A DNA stretch of 64,000 nt, taken from contig OZ316896.1 of the NCBI GenBank assembly GCA_973895155.1, forward strand, positions 10,737,525 through 10,801,524, read 5' to 3'. Every line of letters starts with the position of its first letter. The stretch's first letter is position 1. Shown in pieces: positions 22,651-64,000 of this stretch. Below the pieces are notes generated by a model, which saw nothing but the letters and a program-made list of their open reading frames with translations, did no database searches and was not told where the DNA came from. Source of the stretch: Marsupella aquatica. Lineage: Eukaryota; Plantae; Marchantiophyta. The position numbers and the translations under genes were made by a program.

Positions 22651-25361
22651 ATGAAGGGAGCTCCTAAGGTCCGGGCTGCAATGCGGAGGAGAGTTGCCCT
22701 TGGAGGCAGTGCAGCACGGTGCTGCTACCGATTCTGTTACATTATGCTGGTTGTGGCAGCTGTTGCTACCCTGACTTCTCGATTGAGGGGTGCTCGGCTA
22801 CCACCCGTGGTGTCAAACAAAATGGGTGAGTCAAGAAGAAGACCTGCTCGTCTCCTATTCTGGAAGCACTCTTGCACTTGCCACTTTGAAGTGTCTTATG
22901 ATGTGATGAAGTACAATAAGGCAAATGTCGGCCGGCAAGCAGGCAGTCTGTATGCAATGTATACTCAGCTGGGAATAGTAATACAAAGTACCGGAGAATT
23001 TGGATCTACTGTTTGAAGATCATGCAAATGTTGCTGTCAGTCTCTAACGAAAATTTCAATAAGAGGGGCAAAGCATGAAGCAGGGTGTCGAGATGCTAAA
23101 CTGCGGTGTGTAAGATTGGAAAAGGTCCCTTGGAAGATGAGGATGGATGGAAGAAAGGTGAGAGAGACGAACATACGTCTTAAGATGGACGTGATGAGAG
23201 GTTGTAACACTGCTACGTTACTCACATTGCAGTGGTTCTGGGTTTGACACAAGTGGCTAGTGACTTTTTTGTGCCTGCCAAACAATAAGACAAGTGATTT
23301 GGTTTTGGCTCTGGCAGGCGAGAACATGGGAAGCGAAAGAAGAGACAATAGTGGAGACCATTTGTCCCTAGATGTTGGACAGGATCCCAAGCAGGAGCAT
23401 CTGCGTAGATGGATTGTCAACCCCAATTCGCTGTGTTTTGGGAAAGGAAACATTACCATTCTCTCTGTTGCGATCGGCCTGCCCCAGGTAACAAACGATC
23501 TCTACTGTACACCTTCTCTGAGCGTTATGAAGCATTTAAAAGTAATGTTACTGTTTCTACGCAGACGTGGCAACTTCGGGTCAAGTCTTCATGTCGGACG
23601 ATTAGGCTGGAATTCACACAAATAAGACCGAAGATCATTGCGGAATTTTTGCTTCAGCTGTCTTTGACAGAAGATTGTCTCAACTTTAAATCTACTTGCA
23701 CAGTTATATCCGTACCATGTTGCTGCTGTGTTCGTATCAGGTTCCGAGTTTCTGTTGTATCCAACTTATCTCTTTGTTAGACGACTCAAACCTGCGACAT
23801 CATAATTTTCCATTCCTTCTCTCAATTTTTTTTGATACTTATAGAGCTACCCTTTTCCCATCCTAAGAGGGCTAGGGCTTCCTGTGTCGAAAAAATGATT
23901 CTTGAGAAAGCCAGGTTCGAATAAGTTCCCACAGTTTCCTTTTCACAACTTCATAGTGTGTGTTGCCAGTAGCTGTCAACACTAGTATCTATAACGTCAC
24001 TGTAGATAGCTCTAGCGTCCAAGAGCCCGAGCGAGCTACTGTGGGTTTCTCGTCGAATTGCTTCTATATAACAGTGTAAATGAGGCATGCTGCGTTGGCA
24101 GCCGATGCCCCAAGGTTTACCTATTTTTTCATTTCTGTGTGTTTGTGTGAATCTCCAACGGAAGCCGTTTTACACACTTGCTGAGATCGTTTCTGTTCGA
24201 CCTGAACTCGTCATATCATGGCACATGCCTTTGTGTCACATTGTTGTACCTGATTTGATAGATTTAATGTAGTAAAGAACTTTTGCGGAAGCTTGCTGTC
24301 TGGCACGTTGTCTTTTAAATTTTCAGGTTTTCTTTGCAACTAAGCGACTCACAACTGACTTCTGGTCCGGATGTAGGAGTATCTCGAGCTGTTACGAAGC
24401 AACCGACTTGCATACGCAGGCACACATAACTACCGCTACTGTGAAGTACAAACGGTCCTTGATTTTAATAGACATCCTCACTGGACGAAAGTTAAAGCGA
24501 CATCACTACTACTCAGCTTTGCAGACACAGTGATGCACATTGATGCAGATGCCCTCATCGTTAATCATTCTGTAACCATTCAGAGCATCATGGAGGCACC
24601 AACTCTGAACTTATCAGGGAAAGATGTTATCTATACTAGTGATTTCAAGCAAAAGCAAGATGGTGGAGTGGATGCCAAGTCCCATATCAGCTCCGCAGTC
24701 TATATAATGCGAAGTACTGCCTGGAGCAAGGTCTACTTCTTCATCGTTTTCCCTGCACCTGACTTCGTTTGATATCTTGTAAGCTATGCATACGTTACTT
24801 GCTTTCTCGTTATAATTATCCGTCGGCGACCTCTATTCCGTGTATAAAAGACATTAGGGTGCAGGAAATCTCAGCACCCGAGTTTCTGCAATATTTGAAT
24901 GGGTTACTCGATTCCTGTATGGCAGGCGTTATTGGAAGCTGAACATAAGTTCTATAGGGAGTCATCGTTGTTCAATACGTATGAGGAGATGGATGCTCTG
25001 AACCTGTACCGTATGAAGCATTCTGAGGAATATGCTCATCATGTGGGTATCGTTCCTTTCCGGTAAGTTTCCATGATCAGAACTGCGCATATATCCAGTT
25101 CTGCTCTATTGCATGAACCTGGCTTGAATTTCTTGAAGTCTCTATTGTGCTACTTGACCGGTGTTGTTCATGTGCAGGTACATGAACAGCCCTTGCAGTG
25201 AAAACTACAATTATTACGAACCTGGAGATTTCATTGCCCATTTTACAGAAGGAAAGACCCCTGAAAAATATGTCCACTTAGCCTCCCGCTTCAAATCAAA
25301 AAGTCCTCATGAAAAAGGTTGCTCAACGTGCGAGTGCTTTTTAGAGACGCCTGAGATTTGA
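22651..25361 (+). CDS. GT34 (GMA12/MNN10-like) glycosyltransferase; exons 22651-22825, 23318-23487, 24377-24730, 24926-25062, 25178-25361
   Basis: N-terminal TM helix (FCYIMLVVAAVATL). Motifs NRLAYAGTHNY, WTKVK, IDADAL (DxD), SSAVYIMRSTAWS and PGDFIAHF. All four introns are GT-AG and phase-compatible. Confidence 0.85.
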
Positions 25362-44900: not shown

Positions 44901-46515
44901 ACCGACATGACACAACGTATTGCCTCCTGACTTGTCAAACCCTAAACTCTGAAATAATTTGAATCCATAATCCATAATGTCCTTACCCAAAACTGCATAC
45001 ATGCAGCCCCTGCATGCCACACTTAGTATTGTACCATGGGTTGTACTCCCTTAGGAAATAGTTGCTTTTTAGCCGGTTCTATTTTCCAACTCCCAGAAAA
45101 AAGTTCGATTCTATTCTTCTATGATCTTCTCATGCTGCACACTCTTGGGGCAAGGTTGATAGTTGTGTGCACCTTTTGAACAATGGATATTGAGTCATGG
45201 TCTGGTTGTGTACATGGATGCGATTATTGTTGGGCAGAAGGTGGAATGAAATACTAGAACTCTGCAACTTGCTGCATCCTGTCAGCATGCTTATACAAAT
45301 TTGCTTATTGGGGCTTTACAATGAGAGGACAAACAGTATACATTTGTTAGAATATAGCTTCCAAGCTTCTGAAGTACTGAGGGGCTTGGGTGGAGAAGGC
45401 AATAATGTATTTCAAGAGTTTGACAAGACAAACTATTATGATACCCTTGAGGTGGTCAAAATTTTGGCCACAAAATAGTGTACAGGTCACCATTTTGGCA
45501 TTACTCACCAGGACAAGGGCCATGTAGGTTCAGGCATACTAGTGTTGAAGTGACTACCATGAGTCTATTGTTTACAGTAAAGTATTGGTCAAACTTTGGA
45601 TCAGCTCAATATGAAAGTTATTCTATGTTTTTACTAAAATTAGCAAAAACAAATTTCTTCTTAGGCTTTGAAGTGTATTAAGGTCCTGAAAACTACAAGG
45701 TCTACAGCATTACGGGCAATAATGTCCAGGCTACCTTATGGCCATTATGGGCAATAGCAGCCCCTCAGAACTCCAGCCAGAGCTCCCTTGTTTTGGGGTA
45801 TTATAGCACACAATGCCTCACTGTAAATATGACTTTACTACATACATAATGCCCTCATTCTAGGTGATTTTTTTATTTAGGAAAACCCTCTCAACCTTGA
45901 AGCAACCCAATGCCCTAGGTGTGGGACATCACCAAAAGTTAAAGCACCTTTGGCCAAAGCCATCTACACTGTTAATTGTGATTAGTGTTACTAACACTAA
46001 TTCAAGGCAGAGATTAAATTATGCGCTCTACTTATGGATTAATATTACTCACACTGGTTCCTGACTTCTTTTCTTCCAAGGTAGCACATGTGAAGGTTTT
46101 TTGGGGGGGTTTAGCAAAAGAGTTAAACAAATTGTGGAAGAATATTAGGGGTGTTTGAATTCAGTTTTGAGAATTATGATAATTATAGGTTTTTCTTAAA
46201 AAAACATGAGAATATTCCAAAAAGTTTGGCGTAAAAATCCCCTTTTAAAAACTTTATTTTGTAAGTTTTAGGGGTTTTGTAGGCTCAATGTCAACCTTGC
46301 AGCAGCACAATCCAGCAGCTATGGCAGCAACACAGCATCATGATGAAGCGCCGATGCTGGGGCAGCAAGTAGCAAAGTGAAGCGGAGCTGAGGCAGCAAG
46401 GTCATCCAAAGCCACGGCAGCGATGACCCTGTTACTTACAAAGGTAGTGCAATGTGCCCTCATTTTCTTGTGAGAAAACGAGGCCCGATGCTCATCAGCG
46501 CCGTGAGCTCGACTG

Positions 46516-48100
46516 TGAGGACCCGTGATGCCTGGAAGGAGTCGCGGAACTCGACTACCTTAACACTTAGCTCCGGCGTCGTTGACTCTGACGCCAAGCT
46601 CCCTTATGGTCCAGGCCCGGATAGGCCATCTGGGGAGGACTTAGCATGGGGAGACATGTGGGCAATGAGACGTGGCACTAGCGAAGGCAAGGCGCCGAAC
46701 TGGTGACACACACTAAGGACTCAGACTAGATGGGAGCTGGTCGGTCAAGGGGAAAAGGGTCAGGCTCAAAGTTGACCGTTCGGACCCCTGGATGCACTTT
46801 GAGTTCTGAGGGCTTGAGTGAGAGCTCCTCTTGGGCCCAAGGCCAATGGAGTTGACGCCTGGGGCAACGGATGCTTGGGGCGCTAGTTATGGCCCGATCC
46901 GAGTTTGGCCAATCGGGGGCCCTGAGCGGCGATGAGATCTGAGGGCCTAGGCATGAGCACTGGGTTGGCCCGATCATAACGGGCTAAGGCACTCTGCTTG
47001 CGAACGCCTAACTAGGAAGTTATGGGCGTTGCTAGTTGGTGGCGCGCCCAGACATGCGGGATAGGATCTGGGTTGCGGCCAAAAAAGTTGAGGACCAAAG
47101 TTGGTCCGGGGGTGGCAGGTCTCCAGAAGCATATATGAGGGAAGTGGTGTCTCCCTAGGGGCTAAGGGCGAGCCAAAGTCGTGAGCCGCGGTGGTCGCGA
47201 CACTAAGGGAAAATGCCAAACGGAAACGACGATATCTTCCCAATGGTGCATTGGAAAGCTCTCAAGGAGGGCGACATACTCCTAAGCTCAGTTGGGTCTT
47301 GAGGAGCCATGGGTTCTCAAGGTTTGCGGGTGTTATCACGCCCGCTTGCCAAATCCTACCGAAACAGCAGCCAAGCCACGTTCAGTCCAAAGCTTGCGTT
47401 GGGGAGGCAAGGCCAAGTAGGTGTGGAGGTTGAGTTCCAAGGGCACTTGGCCCCTAGACCATCAGTGGGGCGAGAACCGGGAGTTGGTTGCTAGAGTCGG
47501 GGCCATTCTGGTCCCGACGTGTTGGGACAAGCTTGGGGCAAGCTTTAGGACAAGCTACGCTATTTGGGCCATGAGCATGTCCTGGGGTCAGGGCGGTCAA
47601 TTGGGGATGGATAGGTACAAGGGGGAACCCGGGCCGAGCCCAAGGAGGGAGTTGTTCCGGACAAACAGTGGGCGTTGGTTTGGTTCAGGCTTATGGCATC
47701 GGGAGGACCTATCGCTGACCTACTTACCAATGTCTGTTGAGCTTGAGTTAGGATGCTAGACTTGGGGATATCTAGATCCTGAAGGGTTACTTACCGAGAC
47801 GTTTGGTTGCTTGTGCACACAGTGAGGACCGTTGAGTAGCGGTCGTGTCGGAGAGCAAGTGCGGCTTCGTATGGGAGGGGCCGCTGGTGGTGCTAGGGCA
47901 CTAGGTTGCTTGCTCGAGGTATTCTGTGGAGACGTTCGAACACCAGGGGCACTTAGGCATAGGTGCTGGGATTGGTGAAGGCGCCCGGTGGCTGGACTGC
48001 ACAAACCTGCCAAATGAGGGCCGACCCAGGTTAGAGTGAGGGGAAGGGGGCCTGCTGGATTTTCCCCCAGAAACATTTTGGATTGTTGGATGATGCGTAG
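46516..48100. mobile_element. GC-rich LTR-like repeat fragment
   Basis: Begins TGTGAGGACCCG and is non-coding. Contains ggaaagctctc and gttatggc modules like those in the other LTR-like elements. Boundaries are uncertain. Confidence 0.35.
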
Positions 48101-48459
48101 TTAACTAGGGGTGGTGAACTAAACTGGAGTCTGGAAAACAGTGGCATTGTAGTCAATACACTAAAAAGTGTGGCACATTGTGATATTCGGACTAATAAGG
48201 TGACAATCTAGTAAAAACCAGTTTTGAAAAATTCACAAGATTTAATGTTACTTTAAACTCAAGATCACCTATTTTAGCTAGCGCCTGAAACCAAAGTGAA
48301 AAAAGTATTTTGGAAAACTGACAAGAATTAAGGTTACTTTTGACTCAAGATCACTTTCACCAAAATTAGTGTTAGTTACAATAACTTGGTAGTAGTGCTA
48401 ATTTTTACATAATACTAATTAGTGTGAAGTGTTGCTTTGTTGGGGAGAACTGCTGTCAG

Positions 48460-48920: not shown

Positions 48921-51900
48921 CAGTAGAACCTCATAGATGCCCATCCCTGAAAATTTATAGTATCTCCAGCCAGTAGAATCTAGACCTCCTTCTCTCTACT
49001 GCATCCCTATGGATCCTCATGCTTGCCCATGCTGGTTCAACAAACTAAATATTCCCAACAAGAGCCAAACTATAGGGATCGTAGCCCTGATCCTCCAATC
49101 ATTCCCAGAGATGACTTTTCTCAAAATGATCTGCATAACTCATATCCAGCTAACTTACAATGTGAGCATTCATCTCAGATAGCCCCTTCCCAGCACTCAA
49201 ACTTCGGTATTTTATATTATGGATGGATGTTCTCTTCACCGAACACAACATAAAGCAACAAATCAAAAAGGCATGTGTAGCATAAAGCAACGGATAGAGA
49301 AAACAGGAAAAAAAGACACGGCCCACCTTGGGGTTGAACAGGAAGAACACGCCATATCCCACTAGCCCCACCTTGGAGGGGAAAAGGAAGAAAACCCAGT
49401 TTAGTACAACCGTACCTGTGGGGCACGGTGGCAGCTGGTGTGGGACCCTGGGTGTCAGGTGGACTAAGTGCCATACCAATGTACTCCAGATGGACCAGAT
49501 GGATACTTTGAATAACACAAGCGCATTCCCAGGAATGTTTCTATATCTGACTGAGTCCTTACAAGAAGACTGTCTCTCTAATGGTAGCCATTCAAATGGG
49601 GGAACAGGTCTTCAAGATTGGGGGACAATCTGGCAAACCAATACCAATCAATGTCACCTTCAAGTGGTGTTTTTTTTTTGCTGATGTTTACTTATAAAAA
49701 ACTTAGACCAGCTCAATCTCTAAAGAATGGATAGCTTGGTCCATTTCTATTCATGGTCTTGCGTTTAGTACCTCCAGTCCTGGCACATTTTGGCTCGGGC
49801 TTGTTGACTTCAGTGTATGCAATGGGTGAATGGCCACTATTTGTGCCTTAACGTTGTTGTAAAGCCCCCCTCAGAAAATGAGTGAGTGGCTAATTGAGGC
49901 TTTACCTGGCATTTATTTGAGCGGGGGATCAAGAGCTGCAGCACACAAACAGAGGCTCGTCCACATAGGTTCCCATTCATTTTCAATTTTATGAGGGCCC
50001 TTCAAGTCTCCTATGATGAGACAGTCCAAAGAAACAAGGGGATGGTGGAGGAGTTCCCCACACTGTCTTGCCTGCCAAGTCGATCTGGCATGCACAGAGC
50101 AAACTATGTGAGGCCCTGAGAACGGCTATAAAGGTGGAGCAATTTGGTCAAGATTCAAATCTAAATTGTCAAGGTCTGACTCCCTTATCTCGTCACCTGC
50201 CTGGGTGTCTACAATGCTGGTGGGAGTGCTCTAGGAACAGGAGAAGAAGAAGGAGGGGGAGGGTGAGGAGGGGGAGGAGGAGGAGGAGGAGGAGGGAAGA
50301 AAACTTTTACTAGGCCTTTCTCCAAACAAGTCTATCCCATTTTTCCATAGTGGGCATAAAATTGACAACTAAATCTTTGTCCTTAAATAGGCAAAACCAA
50401 GGGATGAGCAAAACAAAGGCTGGATTTTCCCCCCATTTTCAGCCTGTCCCTTGTGCCCAATCTATGGATAGATGGACCTGAGCTGATGATGAAGTGTATG
50501 ATCCAAGTGCTAAGAGCATTCCCACCGGGGACGACATTGCTGACTATATCATCACATTGGTGATTCTAAAACTAAGAATTTAGCTGCCATCAAGTGACTA
50601 CATCTAGGTTCAAGGTAGGTTGGGATCACAGATCTAGTGACTACTATGAAAATTGCGGCAGATGTGATGCTTCCTTTATAGTCACTACTATTCATTTGTG
50701 ATGTAAGTACTTGATAGCAGGCTTGATAGGGAAATCATTGAATGATGGAGGGCCATTCATTGAGGATTGACTAGATTAGTTCTATTCTGGCACTTTATTT
50801 CCATTTTGGCACCATTTTGCCCTGCAGATGGAAGGAAGGACAAAAATATGAACCTATCCAGCTCGGTGTGAATCCTGCCATAGTTCCTTCCCCCTGTTTT
50901 GCCCTGTGGATAGAAGGAAGGAAATGCTGTGCTGAGCTTTCCTACAATCTTTTCCCCTGTTGCCCACCATTTTGTTTAGTCCCTATTACCCCCTAGTTAG
51001 ATGAAAGGAAGTGCTCTGCTGGGCCTTCATTCAATCCTTTGCCCAGATGCCCACCATTTGGCAACACTGCTGTAATCCCTATCACCCTTTATTTCCACAA
51101 AATCTTTAGTTTGCATAACAATATACTTTCTGCAATGATATATTTTTTTTCTCTTTGGCACAATGACCTCTTTATGAAATATATCCTCAATATAATCTTT
51201 TATGCAACGTCATCTTTTGGGTAACGATGTCTTTTACACAATAACATATTTTGTATAACAACATCTCTCGTGTAAGGCTTAGATATTGAGATACTTCTGC
51301 ATAATGACCAATCACCCAAACCTTCAAATATGTTTTGTATAGCCCTTACTGGCTGATGGTAGGAATTATAAAACATTATCAAAAAATAAACTGAGAAATT
51401 AGTATCAACTAAGACTTTCCCCTCAAGTGCTTTCAATACTTAATGGTTCACCATTGGATCAATCCAAACTAGCCAGAGTTTCATCAACAGTGACAAAAAA
51501 GTCAAAATATCATGATTTAACACAAATAGTGACAAAGTATCCAATTCTATCCTTTTGGTGCCCCTCAACCCTATGATTGACCTAGGATGCGGTACACAAC
51601 AAGAACACACAAGAATCTGTAAATCAGGTTGGACTTATCTAGACACAGGTTGGACTTATCTGGACAATCTCATAAACAAGTTGCTATAATGGTGAATCCA
51701 CCTTTCAAATTTTGTCTTATCCATATTTTTTGTGTCATGTATTTTTATTTAAATGTGCCTTATCAAGGGGCAGCCTTTGTAACATATATATTTTCCATTG
51801 ATTTTTAGACCCCTTTAATTTTAGGTATTCTAGAGTATTTTGAATTTATTTTGGCAGCCCCCTTCTAACTTTTAAAGTTTGGGATCTCTTAGAGATGAAA

Positions 51901-52829
51901 CCAACGAGCTTTGAGCTCCTGTCTATAGGTTTTGAGCTCCTGGCCATGGAGTTCAGACTGTAGCACAGTTTTTGCGTCATTTTGACTACCCTCTCGCACT
52001 CAGTTTTTCTCGGAATCCATTTTTCTCAATTGCGTTAGCTTGCTCTTGCCGAGGCGCATCAAAATTGATATAAAACACGTCAAAAACGGTGTCGTATCGA
52101 CATACTTATGGTCACATTCGTTTTCGCTGTTTTTCAGCCATTTTTCTATGATTTTTGCCTTCCTTTCGACGATCATATCTTGGTCAATCTTTCACGGATT
52201 TCAGATTTCTCAAGTGCTTTGTATAGCTCTTCTCCGGGAGAATCAGATTGATCCCAAGAGCGGTCCAATTGGTCTCATATTGCCCCGATTGGACTTTGAT
52301 TAGCTTTCACATTTTTTTTCAAGTTCAACCGTACTCACTTTCAATTAGCTTTGGGGTCCTATAGCAGTTCCTCGTTCACGGAATCAGGCATTCTCATGTG
52401 ATTTGGCCAGCTCTTGTCCAGGAGTGCAACATCTATCCCTACCGCGGTCCTTTTGGTGACATATCAACCACTTTCGGCTCCGATTACGATTCTGATTTAC
52501 TCCTCCATTTTTGGTGACGGTTTCCCTTGATCAACTTTGGAGCATTCTTGTATTGCCACGTTTCTCCTCCGATGGAGTGTGATTGCCCATCAACCAAGCA
52601 AAACTTGCTTGTGCACTAAAGCTGACTAAGCCAACTTCATCATTTAGATCATTTTGTGCTGTCTAAATTCATTTCTATTGCAATGGATACAAATAGCTGC
52701 AATGGATACAAATAGATGGTCTATTTTGGTGGAATCTTAGTACTAATGAAGGCCAAATTTGAGAATTAAACAAATGTCAGTGAATGATTAGCTTTCCACA
52801 TAAGATACATATTGGGACACAAATGCATT

Positions 52830-53380
52830 CTAAGCCAATTTACCTAAGCCGACTTTAAGCCAATTTGACCTAGGAAAATTAGACCTGAGCTGACCTCACC
52901 TACTCCAATCTGACCAGAGAAAACCTTGGCTAAGCCAAGTTGGCCTTTGCCAACCTAATCTATGTAAGCCAACTTCAAAATTTAGACCTGTCCAGCTTTG
53001 CGCATTTTTAATTTCATTTCTATTGGCTAAAAAGGTGTGAATTTATTGCCTGATAGTACAGACATAGCCGTGTACTCTGGTAAAAGATCAGTGCCACTAG
53101 AGCTTGAAGTTGAGAAATAAAAATGTACAAAGATATATAAAATAGACTCAAAAATAGACAAAGCTAACCAGTGATCAGTTTGCCGCACTATACACAAATG
53201 TCTTCTATGTAAGGCCAATGACACCTAAGATGATTTCACCTAAGGCAGCTGATTTACCTAAGTTGACCTTAAGTTAACCTGACCTAAGCAGATCTGACCT
53301 CAGCCAAAATTTATCTGGTTAGTTTGTCGCAAAAGACATGATTAATGCCTTCTAAGCTGATTTGACCTAAACCCCAATTT
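52830..53380. repeat. Cluster of short (G/T)ACCTAAG-like repeats, possible subterminal region of the large element
   Basis: More than 10 variants, e.g. tacctaagttgaccttaagttaacctgacctaagcagatctgacctcagcc at 53256-53305. Confidence 0.55.
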
Positions 53381-53639
53381 AAGGAAAACCGAACTTTGGA
53401 AATTCCGAAAATCACTAAATATTATTATTTTAATAAAAAGGGGGCGACATGACGCGTGGCTGCACGTGAAACCCTGAAAATGACTGCAACGTCACATTTT
53501 AACCAATCCAACTTGACGGGACCAAGAGACATGCTCACGCGAATAATAATAATAATAGAGAAATAAATCTTTGAGATCCTTTATATATGATAACCAGTAT
53601 ATAAGGAGTTTACAAATAGTTTCTAGAACGACATACAAA

Positions 53640-54368
53640 TTAATCTGATCTCATGTTGACTATTATTTTGGAAGCGTCCAAAATTGGGCGTTTGTTAAAT
53701 TGCTCTACTAGATATCTATCTCCATGCCTCTGAATCACAGGGTCTTCCCATAGAGTATGATTATAATCATAATCTCTAAAAATAGATTTAACTGACCAAT
53801 CTGGATAATCTCTTCCATTGGCAATGACAAGCGGCTCACAAGAGTTTGCTAGCTTGCTAAGATACGGAATCAGCAAGTTAATCAGGAAACTATCGTCGAC
53901 CGACCCAAAATATTTGGGCGGAAATAATGATCCAACAACAGGATCTAAACAAGCATGAAATGCATTGGATTCGATAAGCATTATATTTTGCTGCAGATAC
54001 GCCTTCGTATAAATTCAAACCTTCTCAAAACACTTCAAAAATATCCGCTTATTTGATGTCACCCCATCGCATAAGTAACAATGAGACTGATCCCAAATAT
54101 ACTTAAATGAGGCCATTTCTATCACAGTAAAAATAGATGCTAAAATCTGATCTAAATGGTTCTTCCCAAGAGAGGACCAGATCCCTACATCGAAATTCTC
54201 AAAACAGAATCTCAAGAATTCGTGAAGATGAGGCCTTGGAAAAACGTATATATTCCCAATCCGAATTCCAGTTGAGACCGCCATCAGTTGGGAATGCAGT
54301 GCACTGTAACAGAGTAGATGCTCCACGTCTAAAACTAAGAGCCCATTTTCTCTGCTGCAATGAATCTC
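53640..54368 (-). pseudogene. FCP1/NIF-like HAD phosphatase domain (copy 3)
   Basis: LLVLDVEHLLC…RPHLHEFLRFCFENFDVGIWSS…YIWDQSHC…FLK…NIMLIES…DDSFL…LIPYL. In-frame TGA at 54015 and a frameshift near the 5' end. Preceded by the acceptor tctctatag. Confidence 0.8.
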
Positions 54369-54454
54369 CTATAGAGAAACACAAGAAGATGCATGAGCCC
54401 GTATGGATGTAGTCACGCGAATGGTCGCGTCACATATTACAGAGAAAACATCCT

Positions 54455-55161
54455 CTACACTCTGGCCATTGATAAGTGACGTCTGTTGAAGTGCTTGATA
54501 AGAACTTGATCCGCATGTCTCTACACGTACAGATGCTCCCATATATCCTCGTTCAGATCCCAATCTCGATGTAGATTTCTAATCGACCAGATGGGATAAT
54601 CAAACTTGTTAGCGAACGCAAGACAAAGCCCTGAATTTGATAGCTTTCGTAAATATGGAATGAGGTCATCCCTCAAAAAGACATCATCCAACGATCCTTG
54701 AAACGACTTAGCGAACAATAATCCGCATACAGCTGTCTGGCATGTATGGGAAGGACAGGCATCAATCTGGATTATATTCTCTGGTCGATAATCTTGAAAA
54801 TATCACGTAGTCTCTCGATAGATTTGAAGACAATAGTCTTATAATTTTTTTTCACATAACCAAGATTCCAGCAATGATCCCGCGTGAACACATATATCAG
54901 CTGCGACAGGTCGGTGCTCGACAACACTTCTGAAAGTATCTGATAAACCAGTTTATCGTCGAGAATAGACCAGACCATCACATCAAAATGATCATAACAG
55001 AATTTTATAAGATCATGAAGATGCGGCCTCGAAACGACACATAGAGATCCGATACGAATTCCGGGTGTCGACTTGAGCTGAGGAGTATATTTTGAAACAG
55101 AGCACAGGAAGTTTTCCAGTCCTAAAACTAGAAGTTTACGCGACCTGCTCCACTTAGACAC
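54455..55161 (-). pseudogene. FCP1/NIF-like HAD phosphatase domain (copy 2)
   Basis: KLLVLGLENFLC…RPHLHDLIKFCYDHFDVMVWS…VFTRDHC…FKSI. Frameshift near 54790 into ENIIQIDA…DDVFLRDDLIPYLRKL. TAG at 54521, after which homology to copy 3 continues. Confidence 0.8.
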
Positions 55162-55286
55162 CTGTAAATGAACAATTCGATTCTCATATTATGCAATTGC
55201 AAACAACCACGCGACCCGGCGCGTCACTCCCAAAAGTTCAATTTCAATCAATTTATAAATAATAATTGATAATAAACAATAAACGT

Positions 55287-55880
55287 TTACTTATTGGACT
55301 TATCCCGGGCTTCTATAGCACGGTCTTTTTTGGCAGATAAGTATTTCATAAATTCGTCAAACTTTTCTAAATGGTCTTTATTCCCCTGATTACGAATGAT
55401 CACGTTTCTCCTCCAAAGATTCGTCTTATCAATATAATCTTTCTCAAGATTTTCTTGAGAGAACATTGGAATCCCATATCCACTAAGGAGCTCGCGGAAT
55501 GTCAACTTGTCAATTGACATGTCACATAGATATGGATATAGTTTCTTTCTAAAAAATAGGTCATCATCGAGCCCAGAATATGCATCGGGATACATCGATG
55601 AATAGAAGTCATTAAGGCTCGTCTTATATGCAGCGTCATCGATAAGAATGACATTCTCGATGTTGTAATCTTTAATATCGGCGACAATGTTCGAGAGACA
55701 TTTGACAAATAAAGGGATGTCATTATTATTCTTCCCAATAAGTCGAGTTGATTCTTGTCCCCATATAAATTTAATACATTTCAAAACTTCGGGTCAAAGT
55801 ATCAGCCTTACACAAGATAGAATATTCAGTTTGAACATGCACGACCAGATCGCAATGTCGTATAGATCTGCCACCTGGGA
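55287..55880 (-). pseudogene. FCP1/NIF-like HAD phosphatase domain (copy 1, 5'-truncated)
   Basis: YDIAIWS…(TGA 55794)…FIWGQE…FVKCLS…NVILIDDAAYKTSLN…DDDLFFRKKLYPYL. The N-terminal DxD segment is missing. Confidence 0.75.
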
Positions 55881-56112
55881 TTAGGCGCCATCTGTACCTG
55901 TGATTTTTGTGCTGCAGGGTTTGGAGAACGTACTAGAACGGTCTGTTTGTTTCTCGCCTCCGGACGATCACCGGACTTCCGGACTGGTGCCTTCGATACT
56001 CGATCAGGGGGTTTTGGGATAGGCTCTTGTAAAACATTAAGAAATGAAAATAAGTTTATAACGCAAACGGTCGCGTGACTACAAAGAGAGATACTGAAAT
56101 GAAGTGTATTAC

Positions 56113-56901
56113 CTGTACAAGACGGTCGTTCAGTGCTGGAATTCCACCAAAAATGTCAATCATAGCAGCATGGATCCCGGTAACTAGGTTACTTGCGGAC
56201 GTCAGCTTGCGGAAGTCCATGTCAAATAACGACAAGACTATCTCCCTACGGAATTTCTCAATTTAATCCGCGGCTAAATTAATTCCGTTTCCTTGACACA
56301 AGCACTTGGCGTATCTCAAGATAAACACACCACAACTATGGTCGTCACTCTGGTGAGGAATATCATTCCGATATATCCGTTCCCAACCTGAGAGATCCAA
56401 GTTGACACCAGTTCTCCAGCCAATTTTGTCGGCGTAGTACTTCCCAACAATATCTAGCACCCCAGGATTTTGTCGATTATGAACTAGAGAATCTAGGTAC
56501 TCCAGCCGTTTCTCCTTCGGATACAAGACTACCAATGACCAATGTTCTTTCACAGCATTGTGTACTGGAAAGACCAGTTTCTCGTATTCACTGATTTTTA
56601 GCGGAAACTCCTTTGTCCAAGCTACTCTCTCCTCGTCGAAAATGGTAGGATCCATGGAGAGAAGCTCAAAATGGTGTGTTTGGAAGAATTTGACAAGGTC
56701 TAACTTTCCAACTCTATCGAGAATCAGTTCGAGAAAACTCAAATAAGCGTTAATTATATCATCGGTGAGCAACTTGCGCGGTCTCAGACACATCATATGT
56801 TTCCTCTGGATCGAGTGTTGTAAGAACTTGGTCAATAGCTCTTCCATATCCTTAGAAGGATCAAGGCATTGATCTATTCGACTAGCCAAATTTTCAAAAA
56901 A
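56113..56901 (-). pseudogene. Ulp1/SENP (peptidase C48) domain, exon of the large gene
   Basis: LLTDDIINAYL, FPVH…EHWSLVV, YLDSL and PHQSDDHSCGVFIL: the His-Asp-Cys triad and oxyanion Gln are present. An in-frame TAA at 56263 is followed by IEKFRREIV. Exon is bounded by cag|ttt and cag|gtaata. Confidence 0.9.
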
Positions 56902-57919
56902 CTGCAAAAAATAGAGATTTCAGTACGCCTTCAAATAACGTACTGAGGTTGTAGCCTAAGGGTTGTAGCCTCAGAAAACAGAAACAATAACAGATCAATA
57001 ATAAAATAATGACGTCTATAATAGAAACTTTAAGCTTATAGCTTGCGAATGACCTTTGGATTGGGTGGATCCGGCCTTTTCGCAGCTGATCTCTTGGGTG
57101 CCTCAATCGCAACAACATCCTTCAGCCCTCCTCGAGACCGCAGTGATCGCTCCACCTGACCAGTTTGCGAAGGTTGGAGCGATGAGGCGGGAAGACCTTC
57201 AAATGGTTGTGGCATTTGATTCAAATATTCCACAATCTGGGAATCCGATTCCAAAATATCCGCTGCCACAATTTCTGCGCGAGTCATCTCTGCAATATAT
57301 CGGGGTCGAGACCACGAACCCGGTCGGGTCAAGTCAGCTGTTAGTCTCTTAACGACTTGAGCCGAGTCTGGTGCCAAAAACGTTCCCATGTCTTGCACTC
57401 GATTCTCGGAAAAGCGGACATTATTGATGATTGTCTCCATTCTGGATGCAGTGGCAGTCTTCTCCTCGGTAATCAAAAGACCCTTCCAATATTGCAAAGC
57501 AAGGACTGCTTGGACTCGGAGCTGCTCCAGTGAATATTTATTCCAATCATCCAACGAGACCGTACTTAAGGGTGGATCATTAAATTCAAACTTCGGGTGA
57601 AGAAAATAGTCTAATATTTTCTTCTTAACTGCAACTGAGGGTGAAGAAGGCTTCTTCAAATTCAGCCTTATTTTTGGTAGATGTTGTGCCTCAGGATTAA
57701 GCGAAAGATCCTTGGCCCTCTCGGCCTCCTTCCTCGCTGCCTCCAGTCTTGCGGCTTCTTCTCTCTCCAGTCTTGTGGAATCGACCTTTTCCGCCTCCAA
57801 CTTCTCTACCTCCACCCTCTTTGGTCTTGCGGTCTCGTCCGCCATCCTCTCGGCCAGCAGCCTCTCAGCCGCCACACTCTCCGCCTTGGCCCTATTTTCC
57901 TCTGTCACTAAAAGGACTC

Positions 57920-58625
57920 TCGCAGCCTCCGCTTTCTCAGCCTGGGCTTTCTCAGCCTCAACATTCTCGGCCTCTACTTTCTCCGCCTGGGCTTTCTCAG
58001 CCTGGGCTTTCTCAGCCTGGGCTTTCTGAGCCTGGGCTTTCTAAGCCTGGGCTTTCTCGGCCTCCGCTTTCTCAGCCTCCGCTTTCTCAGCCTGGGCTTT
58101 CTGAGCCTGGGCTTTCTCAGCCTCCGCTTTCTCAGCCTCCGCTTTCTGAGCCTGGGCTTTCTGAGCCTGGGCTTCCTCAGCCTCCGCTTTCTCAGCCTGG
58201 GCTTTCTCAGCCTCCGCTTTCTCAGCCTGGGCTTTCTCAGCCTGGGCTTTCTCAACCTGGGCTTTCTCAGCCTGGGCTTTCTCGGCATCCGCTTTCTCCG
58301 CCTGGGCTTTCTTAGCCTGGGCTTTCTCAGCCTGGGCTTTCTCCTTCTTCTTCGCGGCAGTTGCTTTTCTAGTTGTTGCCTTTTTCTTCTTAACCTCCTT
58401 CTTTTGAAGCTCCTCTTGTCGGGCCGCCTCTTGTCGGGACGCCTTCTCTTGCCGGCCGCCTCCTTCTTTTGAAGCTCCTCTTGCCGGGCCGCCTCCTGCC
58501 GGGCCGCCTCCTTCTTTTGAAATTCCTCTTGCCGGGCCGCCTCCTGCCGGGCCTCCTCCAGCCTGGCCTCCTCCTGTCGGGCCGCCTCCTCTCTGGCCTT
58601 CTCCTGCCGAGCCGCCTCCTCTCGG
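57920..58625 (-). repeat. Coding tandem repeats: 15-bp (EKAQA/EKAEA)n and EAARQE(E) repeats
   Basis: More than 25 units of GAGAAAGC(C/G)(C/G)AGGCT at ~57920-58345. GAGGCGGCCCGGCA(A/G)GAG units at ~58400-58625. Confidence 0.95.
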
Positions 58626-61600
58626 TCCACCTCATGTCAAGGCTCCTGTGTGGCCTCTTCATCAGAGTCCTCAACGTCCTCGGAACCCTCCATCTCCTCG
58701 TCCTCTTCATCAGCGTCCTCAGCGTCCTTCATCTCCTCTCCGTCACTCTCTTCATCTCCTCTATTGTCGGAATCTCCGACGTCGTTCTGCGTATCGGTCA
58801 TCCACTCTGGATCTTGGTCATTGACATCCCCATCCGCATCACCTTCCGCGTCACCTTCCCTCTCACCATCCGCATCACCATTTCTCCCTGCATCCTCAAC
58901 ATTGAAGCCGCAGTCGACTTGATCTGAATAAAATCAGATCATTTGATAAGAATGACTCACGTGCATATTCGCGTGAAAAGAAATGTTATGAATGTCCACG
59001 CGCATGTTCGCGTGACGCAATAAAAAGTAAGAGGTTTCAAAAGTAACTTACCTTGGATTGGCCCACTAGGGTACTCCGTTGGTCGAATGTACAATCAATC
59101 GGAATCTTCAGAGAGTGCATACTCTTGCAATAATTGATTACAAATATTATCAGGGATATGTTGTTCGTGGAGGACATCCAAAACATCAGCCCTGAGAGCT
59201 GTTACGGATGGACGGTACTTCATTAATTTATCTATACATTTTTCTATACTAGCCCGTATTGGGTCAATCAATGACAGCATTGTATCAATTGTCGCCGTGG
59301 TGTGTTGCAAGAAACAAGACAACTCCCTATGCGTTGCCACAGGGCAGTAATATTTTACATTGGATTCAGCATCCTGTAAAAAAAGCCGAAATTAGTTCAC
59401 AATATTAATTGAGAATATAATAATCTAAATAATCTTAAAATCAAAACCCCAAAATATAAATCTCAAAACTTACCATTAAGCACTGGATCAAGTTCGTTCC
59501 CTCACCGAAGCATATAGCCCATTCCCCACATTGGACGAATTGACTAACAATACTTTCAAAGAATGGAAGTATCTTTTCTGGGGAAGGTGTCGTGAACTCG
59601 CCACTCTCTTCAAAATTGGCTATCTTCTCAATCTGATATTTGGAGACCAATTGGAACTCGAGGGCTTGTGGATCGCCCATTGTGCTGAAGGCCAAGCTGT
59701 GAAAAGCGTAGGTTACAATAAGCTTCTTCTCCTTCGGTCGCTTCTAAATATGATGGCTATCGATAGCAACGTAGTGTGTGTACTTCCCTAATTCTCGTTT
59801 GATTAAGTAAGACTCAACGGGAGAGGCTACAATAATAACCACATGGTGTGGTTTTGTCCCTATCTCGCTAGTAGCACGAAATAACCCCTCATAGAATGAG
59901 CAATTTGGCGGACGCAAATCTCCCATTGATGAGGGATCAAAATAAATCAAGCTCACAAAGTTCTTGTCTTTACGTATGATACAGTCTGCAAACCCAGCAT
60001 TTTGTATATCCTGCAAGGATCACAATTTCAGCCTCTCACCGACCGGCCGCACTAGTTGGTTTCCTTGACTATCAACTGATTTCTGTATTCCTTCGACCAA
60101 CCTGTAGAATATAGGGTCGATCTCCTTCAACAAATTATCATTACTAATATTTACATTTAAGCACTTCTTCAGATAACCACTCAACGCATCTCTCAACTGC
60201 TTCAGCACCATCTTGTCGAGCTTAAAGCGATCAATCATTCCTTTGACCCGCAATTTCCGCGTTGAATCTGTCAGAATTTTCAGCTCCGTCCGGGTGGATG
60301 TTTCCCCGTTGATTTTACTCAATAATAAAATCTCAAACTCAACTTTCATCTTCTTCTTTATACAGAATTGCTCCAAACTCATGCTGGTCGTTGACAACAC
60401 TGGAGCCTCAGAGGACTTCCTCGCCTTCCCAGATTTCACTTTGATGCTTCGGTTTTTGAGTATAGACAGTCTTCCGCTCAACATATATTCCGCTGCCTTT
60501 CAAAGAACCGAGTCTGAGCACCCTTGACAAGAACGGAATGTCATCTTCAAAAGATGATAAGCACACGGATTATCCGCAATTTTGACGGCGTCCCTCTGTA
60601 AAATTCCGTTGTAAATTACAAGCTCTCCTGTCCTTGATAGTTTGTAGACCTCCATCCACTTCTTGAATGTTTTGTCCTCCATTGTAAAGAGAAACGGAGC
60701 CAATTCTCCAAATTTCATCATTTTGTTCTTCCCCATTTGAGCCCATGGGCAAACAAAACTCGTAGCTCTCATAAATACCTGAAAAACAATGGAAACATGA
60801 CAATTTAAGCTTGACGCGACCGTTTGCATGACAAAAGTTTATACGATAATGTGATCGAAGAGGGTTATTTATATACCTTCCAATTTGGATGATGATAATG
60901 TGATCCAGGCCGCCCAAATGAGTTCCAGATATTACGACACTGTCGTACAATGGTGAGAAACTGTCCTTCTTCCATTGATGTTTGATGACAATGGTTCAGA
61001 GCTTTCGATAATCCCATCAAATGAACATTATTGTCGTTGTTGAGCGTTGCCCAAAACATTACAGCTTCTACAGTACCGCAAGCGTCTCGTACAACTTGGT
61101 TGACTTTGTCGTCCTCTCTCAGCAATTTGTACGCCATTATTGTGTGCTGGCCTCTGAGTATCCAAAAATGACTGGTCATAATGTCCTCCTCCTTTGGCAA
61201 TGAATCGTAGGGCGTCCCATTGTAGTCGGGATCTCTGTCGGCCTCCGACTGAACCCACTTCACAGGGACTAAAAAGCAGCATCGCTTCTCGAAGTTTATA
61301 GCCGAATGAGAGAGGAGTGAATTCTTTAGCCTATCTGTGTAATCCTGATTCCACTCTCGGCACTTGATGTGGTCCGGTGCAAGATGACAACGTGATGTCT
61401 CAACAAAAAATGACTTGCTGTTAAATATATTCACAACACTATATTCTTTGAGGAAAGAATCGAACAGAGCCCCAACATTTGCTGAGGTAATTACTTTCGG
61501 AAGATTCTCCGTCGAGTATACTTCAACCTTGCTCACTGGCGGGGCCTTACCCAAGCGAAATCCCTGGTTGAAAGGAACTCTCTGGAACTCAAGTACGTCC

Positions 61601-61951
61601 ATAATGTATTGACAAATCAAATCTCCCGTTGATGCCTCTGGATCGGAAGGATATCCCACACTAGTAACCTTTTCCAAGGCGTGCCTTGCACCTAGAAGAT
61701 CATTGATTCTGGGCTGATTGAAGGTTACATATTGCGTTCAATCCAAACAAATGCTTATTTTGTCTTCCTGCTGGTCGTCGCTGACTAGCAGAACCAATCC
61801 CTCTGTACACTCTTTAACTTTCATGTTCTTCTCAAAGAAACACCCGAGAATTTTTTATCTCTCCAAAACTGTAGCTTTATCATTTCTTGCCACCACAAGA
61901 CGGACAGCCCCATTGCGAACGACTATTCCAAAATCGGATATCTCAGTCGAT

Positions 61952-62458
61952 TCAAAGAGATGGATACTCTTTTTCATCTAACCAAAACCAAAGGTTCCTA
62001 AACGTGTCAAGTTCAGATCCTTCAAATCCACCCAGAATGTCCAGCGGTGGGAGAGTTCTGATGGATTCTGTAAATCCTAATGCTACACTCCGTGAAGTCA
62101 AATGCCTTCGAAGCGATTCATATCCTGGTCTATCAGTGAAGTCGTAAGCTACCAAGGTGACCGTCGCCCAAGTACTACTATAAGTAACTATGTGGCACCA
62201 CTTCTTACTGACTGTTCGAATGGTGATCAAGTCCATGACCCGATTTTTAATCGTAGTATCCGACAAATTCCCAAGATAGTGGAAAAACTCTTTGACTAAT
62301 GGCCAAATATATTTCTCGACAATATCGTCCGGAAGACCGGGTATCAGGTCTTCAGCTTGACTCCATATCATGTTTCGGTTCATAACCTTTGCACGTGCAA
62401 TGCGCTCCATCATCATTTGACGATGAGATTTTTGATTCATGTCAAAGGATTGCAGCAT
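61952..62458 (-). CDS. F-box-like protein (tandem copy 3)
   Basis: LIPGLPDDIVEKYIWP…LITIRTVSKKWCHIV…W. Uninterrupted 168-aa ORF. Confidence 0.75.
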   Translation of the reverse strand: MLQSFDMNQKSHRQMMMERIARAKVMNRNMIWSQAEDLIPGLPDDIVEKYIWPLVKEFFHYLGNLSDTTIKNRVMDLITIRTVSKKWCHIVTYSSTWATVTLVAYDFTDRPGYESLRRHLTSRSVALGFTESIRTLPPLDILGGFEGSELDTFRNLWFWLDEKEYPSL

Positions 62459-62492
62459 AATATGGAAAAGATTAAGAACAAGAACCTATCCA

Positions 62493-63059
62493 TTAAGAAC
62501 TTGGACCACCAAGATTCTGAGAAAATCTACCAAACCTTTCGATTAGGACATCTCGTTCTTCCTCATCTAAATTGTTATATTTGTTCGTAAACAATGCGAT
62601 TTCGTCAGAAGTAGTAGTCCCAAGAACAGATATTTCTGGAAGCATAGAAATATCCTGTCGAATAACTCGACAGACTGAGTCAAACTCCAACTCGTCAGTT
62701 TCGGGTATGTCGTAAAGAGCATCATTTGCGACATCGACAATCCGGTTTGCTTGTTTGAGGATAGCCCATAACTTTGTATTTGTAACTAAAAAGTTCCACT
62801 TCTTGCTACAAGCTCCAAGCCGAATAAGGTCTCGGACCCTATCGATAACCAAATTGTTATCGAGGTGTCGATATCCACGCAATCTTTCAATTGAAATAAA
62901 GTGTTCATAGAGTATTGGCCAAATGTTTGAAATGACCAAAACATCTGGTATTCCTCCAATGAGACTAGAGGAGGTTTCATCCAGCGTATCCCATATTGTT
63001 TTCTGTTTCTTTTCATGAGTTGAAAGGAAATCTTGAGCCTCATTCAAAAGTTGGCTCAT
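62493..63059 (-). CDS. F-box-like protein (tandem copy 2)
   Basis: LIGGIPDVLVISNIWP…LIRLGACSKKWNFLV…LW. Uninterrupted 188-aa ORF. Confidence 0.75.
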   Translation of the reverse strand: MSQLLNEAQDFLSTHEKKQKTIWDTLDETSSSLIGGIPDVLVISNIWPILYEHFISIERLRGYRHLDNNLVIDRVRDLIRLGACSKKWNFLVTNTKLWAILKQANRIVDVANDALYDIPETDELEFDSVCRVIRQDISMLPEISVLGTTTSDEIALFTNKYNNLDEEERDVLIERFGRFSQNLGGPSS

Positions 63060-63124
63060 CCTGCTTTTATCATATCACAAAACATTGTTAGAAGACATAC
63101 GACGCGCTTGGTCACGTAAGTTAA

Positions 63125-63676
63125 CTAGAATTCCTTAAAAGCATAGATGTCACCCTCAAGGTATCCAACTTCGTGGCATCTGATTGTAAATTTCCATTTT
63201 TCAAGAGGGTGAAGAGCATCGTAAGTCTTTGTGAAGAGTTCCCTAAGATCTCTGGACATTGACCCCATGAATTTAATTCTTGGGTATTTTTGGAAGAAAC
63301 TTTGAACTGTCGATGAGAGAGACTCATTTCCGATCGGTTTAGTAGGATTTCCTGGGAAAGCCAAATCTAATAAACTCAACTTGATTACACCCAGAAGATA
63401 GGTATTCCCAACAAGGTGACGCCATCTGCGACACACCGAAGATAGTCCTACAAACTCATCCAATTCCTTTATTGAGAAATTTCCTGCATTAGCCGAGGAA
63501 TTAAAAGTCTCCTGGATCCGAGGCCATATCAATTCCGCGACAATGAAATCTGGAAGTCCAGGTAGTAGTGTTTCAATAAATACAGAATATCCCGCCAGTA
63601 GACCATCTTGGCTTCTGTCCAAAACGTCAAATATTGGGCATAGATATCTGAAGCTCTTCAGACCAGGTTTGCCCAT
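63125..63676 (-). CDS. F-box-like protein (tandem copy 1)
   Basis: LLPGLPDFIVAELIWP…VGLSSVCRRWRHLV. Uninterrupted 183-aa ORF. Confidence 0.75.
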   Translation of the reverse strand: MGKPGLKSFRYLCPIFDVLDRSQDGLLAGYSVFIETLLPGLPDFIVAELIWPRIQETFNSSANAGNFSIKELDEFVGLSSVCRRWRHLVGNTYLLGVIKLSLLDLAFPGNPTKPIGNESLSSTVQSFFQKYPRIKFMGSMSRDLRELFTKTYDALHPLEKWKFTIRCHEVGYLEGDIYAFKEF

Positions 63677-63716
63677 GACTCTTTTCAGCCAAATGATATA
63701 TCCTAGAGATTATTTT

Positions 63717-63977
63717 CACGCGACTGGTCGCGTCTACAAATCAGAATGCATAAACAATTCTTTGAGAGACTAATTTTTTCGGGTCACAACGTGAAAAATC
63801 ATAAATGTTGCTTCGTCCTCTAACAGAACCAGTCAATGAGAGAGCAACCTCAGACGCGACTGGTCGCGTCAACTGAACCTAAACAACTATATCCACTGAA
63901 CCTTCTGTGGAGATTTGGATATGGTACGCGCTCAGTAAATCTATCCAGTTTCCTTCTCACACGCGACTGGTCGCGTC
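63717..63977. promoter_or_regulatory. Three copies of the dyad ACGCGACTGGTCGCGTC upstream of the cassette
   Basis: Identical 17-mer within 63717-63734, 63853-63870 and 63960-63977. A regulatory role is inferred. Confidence 0.6.
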
Positions 63978-64000
63978 AACTGGTCCTAAAAGGAACCTTA

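What the first reader, a model, noticed from the sequence alone, without database searches (positions are those of the whole stretch)
53400..64000. Compact cassette of ubiquitin/SUMO, CTD-phosphatase and DNA-methylase-like modules: candidate undescribed giant mobile element
Seen: ~10 kb of co-oriented minus-strand coding sequence, in the order 3 F-box ORFs, then ParB-like/MTase-like/coiled-coil/Ulp1, then 3 NIF domains. The cassette has its own recurring dyad and is unlike the rest of the window. Established: Ulp1 proteases are carried by some plant Mutator-like (Kaonashi) and CACTA elements. F-box, NIF and Ulp1-like genes also occur in large DNA viruses. Inference: every module could act on host silencing or transcription machinery (SCF, SUMO, Pol II CTD, DNA modification), so this may be a counter-silencing toolkit. 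I do not recognise this combination from any described element.
Basis: partly seen in the sequence, partly recalled or inferred. Interest (0 to 1): 0.88.

Follow-up and report, generated by a model that had tools for sequence, protein, structure and literature searches.

The report
Cargo arm of giant plant transposon
This is one sharply bounded end of a repeated, decaying piece of plant DNA, likely a large DNA transposon of a liverwort-like host, carrying F-box-like genes, a ParB-fold/SUMO-protease gene and phosphatase-like repeats, with one palindromic motif in its non-coding gaps that an element-encoded protein is predicted to bind to resist silencing.

Summary
The cassette is real and is the left 10.6 kb of a multi-copy element. 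Public contigs pile up from position 53,370, and copies start there with unlike flanks. It runs off the window through a ~185-bp tandem array. No transposase lies in the visible part, so the superfamily is open. Confirmed: a ParB/sulfiredoxin fold, Ulp1 with intact catalytic residues, three NIF paralogues, three weak F-box paralogues, and the dyad ACGCG-N6-CGCGT (11 of 11 sites non-coding). ParB to Ulp1 is one predicted ~1,790-codon intron-containing gene, with relatives in the liverwort Calypogeia fissa. Not supported: the methylase and 'CTD phosphatase' (the NIFs are UBLCP1-like and lack DxDxT/V). This copy is decayed (10 in-frame stops). The layout resembles Arabidopsis VANDAL/Kaonashi anti-silencing elements, but with a ParB-fold protein where VANC would be. 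Anti-silencing is inferred, not tested. Verdict: new variant of a known kind; interest 0.55.

The parts
53370..64000 (.). Left 10.6 kb of a multi-copy element, most likely a DNA transposon; continues beyond the window
   Evidence: Summed contig depth 4,250-14,027 (X1) and 1,492-3,016 (X2) over 53.2-63.4 kb, against 32-53 and 57-108 at 48.4-50.8 kb
53370..53435 (+). Left terminus, beginning AACCCC; shared by contigs that diverge further in; no hairpin; the CACTA at 53,413 lies 43 bp inside
   Evidence: Depth jumps from 90-246 to 1,375-4,311 in 4 of 4 runs; contigs start at 53,369/53,370 with unlike flanks, agreement 0.50-0.65; folding z 0.49, -0.17, 0.45
53452..53467 (.). Subterminal dyad ACGCG-N6-CGCGT; imperfect here, perfect in most other copies
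   Evidence: position 53,464
53640..54368 (-). NIF/HAD-IIID-like domain 3; no DxDxT/V; one in-frame stop
   Evidence: Pfam E 4e-12; UBLCP1 E 1.4e-4; TIGR02245 E 1.7e-6
54441..55161 (-). NIF-like domain 2; no DxDxT/V; frameshifted in this copy
   Evidence: Pfam E 7e-8; other contigs carry one more base at 54,799
55287..56025 (-). NIF-like domain 1, C-terminal half recognisable, N-terminal part degenerate
   Evidence: tblastn to NIF2/3, E 7e-8 and 5e-13
56113..56901 (-). Ulp1/C48 SUMO-protease exon; catalytic His, Asp, Cys and oxyanion Gln present; one stop after the domain core
57054..58923 (-). Acidic tract plus 15-bp-unit Ala/Glu/Lys repeats and a linker (exon 4); two stops, one frameshift
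59052..59373 (-). Exon 3, no family match
59474..60778 (-). Exon 2: conserved region of unknown fold (the claimed MTase-like part, not supported); three stops
   Evidence: 50% identity to the stop-free relative P0041
60877..61971 (-). Exon 1: N-terminal region plus ParB/sulfiredoxin-fold domain; family motif GGQHT lacks the GxxR arginine; two stops
61952..62440 (-). F-box-like ORF 3, no stop
   Evidence: Pfam E 0.0024, below cut-off
62493..63059 (-). F-box-like ORF 2, no stop
   Evidence: Pfam E 0.0029, below cut-off
63125..63675 (-). F-box-like ORF 1, no stop
   Evidence: Pfam E 0.015, below cut-off
54415..63117 (.). Seven internal dyads (54,415; 55,209; 56,061; 58,959; 58,998; 60,814; 63,102), each in an intron-like or intergenic gap
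63718..64000 (.). Three perfect dyads (63,718; 63,854; 63,961) and the start of a ~185-bp tandem array that runs off the window
   Evidence: contig joints 64,000 back to 63,816, and depth 58,783 (X1) and 5,533 (X2) in the last bin

Best explanation
Positions 53,370-64,000 are the decayed cargo-bearing arm of a multi-copy element, likely a large cut-and-paste DNA transposon of a liverwort-like plant, whose transposase would lie beyond the window and whose ParB-fold/Ulp1 protein is predicted to bind the element's own palindrome and shield copies from silencing. Shown: many copies, a base-precise left end, the domain content, a dyad confined to non-coding gaps and a tandem array, and decay of this copy. 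Inferred: one ~1,790-codon gene from ParB to Ulp1 (four phase-compatible GT-AG introns; the first junction is spanned by two liverwort gene models). Inferred by analogy with VANDAL/VANC/Kaonashi: the protein would dock on the dyads, and Ulp1 would strip SUMO from silencing chromatin nearby. The F-box-like and catalytically degenerate NIF modules would act as adaptors or decoys for the ubiquitin/proteasome machinery. I put about 0.8 on 'DNA transposon of some kind' and about 0.4 on 'the dyad is an anti-silencing docking site'.
For: Depth step and unlike flanks at 53,369/53,370 in 4 of 4 runs, including 6,598-nt and 1,830-nt low-depth contigs that end in the terminus. High depth across the cassette, F-box part included. 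Single contigs at depth 852-873 against 35 (X2), and 505-591 against 10-20 (X4), suggest tens of copies; this is a rough estimate. Three relatives lie on three different large Calypogeia fissa contigs. Dyads; two imperfect dyads are perfect in most other copies. Introns; P0042 and P0020 span exons 1 and 2. Decay: 10 stops in 2,055 codons, with Arg in relatives at three of them. Precedent: VANC binds short motifs in introns, intergenic and terminal non-coding regions, often in tandem repeats (PMC5735166, passages), and some VANC genes carry Ulp1 (PMC13317346, passages).
Against: No transposase, recombinase or Rep/helicase in six frames of the visible part. No second end, TIR, TSD or empty site could be seen. 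No listed contig spans the whole cassette. The runs may include the source sample, and summed depth is not copy number. The terminus fits none of the patterns I could read: Sola2, CACTA and Kyakuja, Helitron1. Nothing shows that the ParB-fold protein binds DNA: no helix-turn-helix was identified and the exon-2 model was uninformative. Transposases and TnpA can themselves bind such motifs (bioRxiv 10.64898/2026.08.24.746577, passages). The Ulp1-NIF and NIF-NIF junctions are not phase-compatible in this copy.
Confidence: 0.6

Rival explanations
1. The same transposon, but the dyads are sites for the unseen transposase or for a host CGCG-binding factor, and the ParB, Ulp1, F-box and NIF modules are passengers or helpers of transposition with no anti-silencing role.
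For: Dyads also sit 82 bp from the end and in a tandem array. TnpA and MuDR transposases act on cognate copies through their own motifs. The family's ParB motif lacks the arginine used for nucleotide binding (role of that Arg recalled).
Against: Seven dyads lie deep inside the cargo region, one or two per gap, which matches the VANC pattern better than a purely terminal one.
Confidence: 0.2
2. A rolling-circle (Helitron-type) or tyrosine-recombinase element that captured these genes.
For: No inverted copy of the terminus lies in the window; the flank side of the boundary is A/T-rich; the mobility gene is unseen.
Against: No terminal hairpin on either strand and no TC or CTRR end as described for Helitron1. 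An earlier unchecked note from another genome links a ParB-like gene, FCP1-like repeats and a palindrome to a DDD transposase.
Confidence: 0.1
3. An endogenised fragment of a large DNA virus.
For: F-box, NIF and Ulp1-like genes occur in large DNA viruses (recalled). The element is gene-dense (about 86% coding) and less CpG-depleted than the rest of the window (0.88 against 0.56).
Against: GT-AG introns, with the first intron position shared by relatives. The only named true relatives are from a liverwort. 0 of 45 and 0 of 45 candidate stretches in viral contigs were relatives. No viral hallmark in Pfam or PHROGs.
Confidence: 0.05
4. An ordinary host gene cluster, or a segmental duplication.
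For: F-box, Ulp1 and NIF are all host-type domains.
Against: Tens of copies sharing one base-precise end with different flanks, and pseudogene decay.
Confidence: 0.05

Closest known systems
VANDAL / Kaonashi (KIU) non-TIR Mutator-like elements of Arabidopsis (PMC5735166, PMC13317346; passages read)
   Same: Large plant DNA element; long accessory gene with internal repeats and a Ulp1 domain; short family-specific motif in introns, intergenic and terminal non-coding regions and in tandem repeats.
   Different: No VANC or MULE-transposase match in the visible part. The accessory protein starts with a ParB/sulfiredoxin fold. The motif is a 16-bp CG-rich palindrome, not an asymmetric 8-9-mer. It adds F-box-like and NIF-like triplets. 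The host is liverwort-like.
Sola elements (Sola1 is listed for Physcomitrella in PMC9033089; Sola2 ends in PMC3627910 and its file S11)
   Same: An earlier unchecked note (e1-7364000) reports a Sola-like transposase with a ParB-like gene, tandem FCP1-like domains and one palindrome in another moss-like genome.
   Different: No transposase is visible here. The end reads AACCCC, whereas the Sola2 ends I saw are an AWWT duplication followed by G. Sola1 ends could not be consulted (paper not held).
Zisupton/KDZ transposons (PMC12062965, PMC12730594; passages read)
   Same: Precedent for an F-box in a transposon protein, and for transposons carrying chromatin-modifying cargo; a SUMO protease in Zisupton is recalled.
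   Different: No CxC or KDZ domain was hit; the end is not CA as in Kyakuja; TSDs untestable.
Bacterial and phage ParB/Srx superfamily (PadC, KorB, SerK, sulfiredoxin); fungal DUF3723
   Same: Same fold and language-model neighbours; ParB binds 16-bp palindromes (recalled).
   Different: 9-15% identity, no GxxR arginine, no HTH identified, spliced, and fused to a eukaryotic Ulp1.

Membership tests
Class II DNA transposon (any) | Dispersed copies with a shared precise end | tested here: met
   depth step and unlike flanks at 53,369/53,370 in 4 of 4 runs
Class II DNA transposon (any) | Transposase or recombinase gene | tested here: inconclusive
   None in six frames of 53,370-64,000; the element continues past the window; several DDE families have no Pfam model (PMC5751038)
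Class II DNA transposon (any) | Second end, TIR, TSD, empty site | not testable with these tools
   No genome held; collection scans found no true copy
VANDAL/Kaonashi MULE | MULE transposase (VANA) and VANC protein | tested here: inconclusive
   No MULE hit in the visible part; VANC similarity was not searched directly
VANDAL/Kaonashi MULE | Ulp1 domain in a long accessory gene | tested here: met
VANDAL/Kaonashi MULE | Short motif concentrated in non-coding regions and tandem repeats | tested here: met
   11 of 11 sites non-coding; tandem array
VANDAL/Kaonashi MULE | Protein binds the motif and demethylates cognate copies | not testable with these tools
   needs EMSA/ChIP and methylome data
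Sola2 | AWWT 4-bp TSD followed by a G-initial short TIR | tested here: not met
   End reads AACCCC with a variable preceding base, against the DFa/PPa ends in file S11 of PMC3627910
Sola (1/2/3) | Sola DDD transposase | not testable with these tools
   Would lie outside the window; only an unchecked note from another genome
CACTA/EnSpm | 5'-CAC terminus | tested here: not met
   CACTA at 53,413 is 43 bp inside the boundary and occurs 138 times in the window
Helitron1/2 | Terminal hairpin; TC and CTRR ends (Helitron1) | tested here: not met
   No hairpin beyond shuffles; definition from PMC3627910; only one end seen
KDZ (Kyakuja/Zisupton) | KDZ transposase with CxC cluster; 7-8-bp TSD; CA..TG ends (Kyakuja) | tested here: inconclusive
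   No hit in the visible part; end is not CA; TSD untestable
ParB/sulfiredoxin superfamily | ParB/Srx fold | tested here: met
   Top 8 of 55 matches, best Z 8.6, rmsd 2.7, 96 aligned; consistent Foldseek and Atlas leads
ParB CTPase | GxxR nucleotide-binding arginine (motif recalled) | tested here: not met
   Family motif GGQHT
Ulp1/C48 protease | His-Asp-Cys triad and oxyanion Gln | tested here: met
   alignment to SENP1
FCP1/SCP CTD phosphatase | DxDxT/V catalytic motif | tested here: not met
   GLENFL and DVEHLL in the two complete copies; closest to HAD-IIID/UBLCP1
N6A/N4C DNA methyltransferase (beta class) | Significant profile or fold match with DPPY and FxGxG motifs | tested here: inconclusive
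   Not above shuffled controls; fold model unusable; only two query sequences
F-box proteins | F-box motif above the family cut-off | tested here: inconclusive
   3 of 3 ORFs hit at E 0.002-0.015, below the gathering score; two in one frame sum to 23.2 bits
Endogenous giant virus | Capsid, PolB, packaging ATPase; viral relatives | tested here: inconclusive
   None in the visible part; no viral-contig relatives; the rest of the element is unseen

The most novel reading that the evidence does not exclude
A bryophyte lineage of giant transposons has recruited a bacterial-type ParB/parS-like system as its anti-silencing device. The ParB-fold protein loads at the 16-bp CG-rich palindromes placed in introns and gaps, spreads along the element, and delivers a SUMO protease plus F-box and pseudo-phosphatase adaptors. 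That would be a solution independent of VANC and TnpA, possibly in a transposon superfamily with an end not yet described.
Probability: 0.2. Interest if true: 0.85.

Novelty: new variant of a known kind. Interest (0 to 1): 0.55.

Why it matters
The sequence-specific transposon anti-silencing systems I read about (VANC, TnpA, AtMu1) are from Arabidopsis. This element offers a candidate protein and a candidate target motif in an early-diverging plant lineage, so the open question of how widespread such systems are becomes testable by a binding assay and a methylome. A ParB-fold domain fused to a eukaryotic SUMO protease inside a plant repeat is also unusual, and its host gene models are currently unnamed. 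Against that, cargo-laden plant transposons with Ulp1 are well known, this copy is decayed, and its mobility gene is unseen.

Tried and rejected
Whole genome: none held. Sequencing runs: no RNA holder listed, which is no evidence on expression. The small-share runs X5 and X6 cover the cassette thinly; I draw no species-range claim from them. Searches for longer, full-length ParB relatives found none (weak evidence). Metagenome scans: terminus pattern 0 hits; ParB alignment 1 of 39 candidates, a 1.2-kb uninformative contig. Viral contigs: 0 of 45, 0, and 0 of 45. Prokaryote genomes: 0 of 27, and one 20-base chance match. P0005 and P0027 among the 26 hits are repetitive, unrelated-looking proteins and were left out of all alignments. 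Methylase: Pfam, PHROGs, NCBIfam, PDB sequence, phage tblastn, Atlas, AlphaFold/Foldseek and a custom 33-sequence profile were all negative or at chance; one locus (L057) was dropped for an internal stop, and 34 of 75 loci were chosen to cut redundancy. The best local alignments did fall where a beta-class fold would put them, so a degenerate domain is not excluded. CACTA at 53,413 was rejected as the terminus. A parS look-alike near 53,460 (consensus recalled) was rejected, because other copies read as the ordinary dyad there. Rfam found nothing in 46-64 kb. The F-box ORFs have 0 stops in 532 codons against 10 in 2,055 elsewhere; about 2.6 would be expected, so this is not significant. Seven look-ups of earlier findings gave one lead or nothing, as did. 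Bao 2009 and Kojima 2019 were not held.
Full report
Context. The window is land-plant nuclear DNA: it holds a PAM2-motif gene, a GT92 gene and a weak GT34-like hit. No whole genome is held. The only named true relatives of the cassette's ParB-like gene are three unnamed proteins of the leafy liverwort Calypogeia fissa, on contigs of 24.1, 9.1 and 17.2 Mb. A liverwort-like host is therefore inferred, not shown.

Observation. Ulp1 is solid (Pfam E 9e-16; SENP1 E 2e-15 with His, Asp, Gln and Cys aligned). Two NIF domains pass Pfam (E 7e-8, 4e-12) and a third, N-terminally degenerate one matches them (E 7e-8, 5e-13). Their best matches are HAD-IIID/UBLCP1, and the two complete copies read GLENFL and DVEHLL in place of DxDxT/V (motif recalled), so 'CTD phosphatase' is not supported. 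Three F-box-like ORFs each hit F-box models below cut-off and are paralogues. A search of 1.84 billion representatives gave 26 hits for the ParB-like exon, 24 of them family members by my reading. Its model (pLDDT 57 overall, above 70 in most of the core) matched ParB/sulfiredoxin-fold chains in the top 8 of 55 places (best Z 8.6), and the Atlas pointed to DUF3723 and ParB_N, with a recognition score below its threshold. The family motif is GGQHT, without the ParB arginine. The methylase claim failed every test: no database hit, an unusable model (pLDDT 35), and chance-level scores against 33 beta-class methylases (hhalign 0.3%, score 15.8 against a null 95th percentile of 19.0; 19 of 500 and 148 of 500 shuffles). 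With only two query sequences, a degenerate domain is not excluded.

Gene structure and decay. Four GT-AG introns join exon 1 (ParB), exon 2, exon 3, the repeat exon and the Ulp1 exon in compatible phase, about 1,790 codons in all. Liverwort gene models P0042 and P0020 span the first junction. The Ulp1-NIF, NIF-NIF and F-box gaps end in AG, but my candidate junctions are not phase-compatible in this copy (4 of 8 tested). There are 10 in-frame stops in 2,055 codons (6 TGA, 2 TAG, 2 TAA), with Arg in relatives at three of them. At one of these all laid contigs differ from this copy (position 60,022). That fits methylation-driven C-to-T decay of a silenced copy (inference).

The dyad. ACGCG-N5-TCGCGT has 9 sites, all between 54,415 and 63,976, against 0.10 matches expected. 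The looser ACGCG-N6-CGCGT gives 12 of 14 sites inside the element. Dropping one overlapping site, 11 of 11 lie wholly outside coding sequence, where 12% of start positions would; I drew the exon limits knowing the dyads, so the formal P (about 1e-10) is optimistic. Two imperfect dyads are perfect in most other copies (53,464; 58,962), so the motif appears maintained in the family. Contig joints from 64,000 back to 63,816 and a depth rise in the last bin show a ~185-bp dyad-bearing tandem array running off the window.

Mobility. Four public runs hold about 45% of the sampled words; they come from two studies and may include the source sample. Summed contig depth is 4,250-14,027 (X1) and 1,492-3,016 (X2) over the cassette, against 32-53 and 57-108 at 48.4-50.8 kb. 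At fine scale it jumps from 90-246 to 1,375-4,311 at 53,358-53,383 in 4 of 4 runs. Contigs begin at 53,369/53,370 with disagreeing flanks (agreement 0.50-0.65), among them 6,598-nt and 1,830-nt low-depth contigs. Single-contig depths suggest very roughly 25-50 close copies; depth is not a copy count, and no listed contig spans the cassette. The end reads AACCCC. It has no hairpin, is not the CACTA 43 bp further in, and does not fit the Sola2 ends in file S11 of PMC3627910, Kyakuja or EnSpm ends (PMC12730594) or Helitron1 ends. No transposase, recombinase, Rep, PolB or capsid lies in the visible part. Scans for longer loci failed. An earlier AI note from another genome (e1-7364000) describes a Sola-like transposase with a ParB-like gene, FCP1-like repeats and one palindrome. 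It is a lead that I could test only in part: the cargo agrees, and the Sola2-type end does not.

Mechanism. Best reading (0.6): the cargo arm of a large DNA transposon whose long accessory protein binds the dyad and counters silencing. The model is VANDAL: VANC binds short motifs in introns, intergenic and terminal non-coding regions and in tandem repeats (PMC5735166, passages), and Kaonashi-type VANC genes carry Ulp1 (PMC13317346, passages). Copy number, the end, domains and motif placement are shown. The transposase, DNA binding and any effect on silencing are inferred. The main rival (0.2) is that the transposase or a host factor binds the dyads, as TnpA and AtMu1 act on their own elements (bioRxiv 10.64898/2026.08.24.746577, passages; its supplements were not seen). 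Helitron or recombinase element 0.1, virus 0.05, host cluster 0.05.

Comparison and novelty. It works like VANDAL/Kaonashi in layout but cannot be filed there: no MULE transposase or VANC was seen. F-box domains are known in Zisupton (PMC12062965, passages). A ParB-type HTH fused to an adenine methylase is described for chlorophytes and chytrids, a different architecture (PMC4738411, passages). Ten literature searches listed no paper on a plant transposon with ParB-fold, Ulp1, NIF and F-box cargo. Other papers were seen as passages only: PMC9033089, PMC5751038, PMC5753468, PMC4455052, PMC10398659; file S6 of PMC3627910 was irrelevant.

Verdict. Observation partly confirmed; interpretation partly supported; new variant of a known kind; interest 0.55. 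Most novel reading: a ParB/parS-like anti-silencing system in bryophyte transposons, probability 0.2, interest 0.85 if true.

Noticed in passing
window 46,000-48,400: A separate, far more abundant repeat (summed contig depth up to about 244,000 in X1), GC 51%, with no Pfam hit in six frames and no Rfam hit. Unclassified.
   Followed up: partly
window 51,400-52,600: Another multi-copy repeat just left of the element (depth 2,400-9,600 in X1/X2), with no meaningful Pfam hit.
   Followed up: partly
window 52,600-53,369: Low-copy segment with a 414-bp-spaced duplication, into or next to which the element has inserted.
   Followed up: no
window 53,370-53,505: Several contigs share the first 40-135 bp of the terminus and then diverge (loose ends at 53,411, 53,435, 53,503-53,505): probably related or non-autonomous families using the same end.
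   Followed up: no
window 62,054-62,236: One contig (X1, depth 180) skips 181 bp inside F-box-like ORF 3: a deletion variant among copies.
   Followed up: no
window 9,918-10,253; 24,377-24,769; 27,940-29,796: Host genes: a PAM2-motif protein, a GT34-like exon and a single-ORF GT92 glycosyltransferase.
   Followed up: partly
P0017, P0021, P0034: More distant members of the ParB-like family (27-29% identity) from unnamed contigs end at the same intron position, suggesting several old subfamilies.
   Followed up: no
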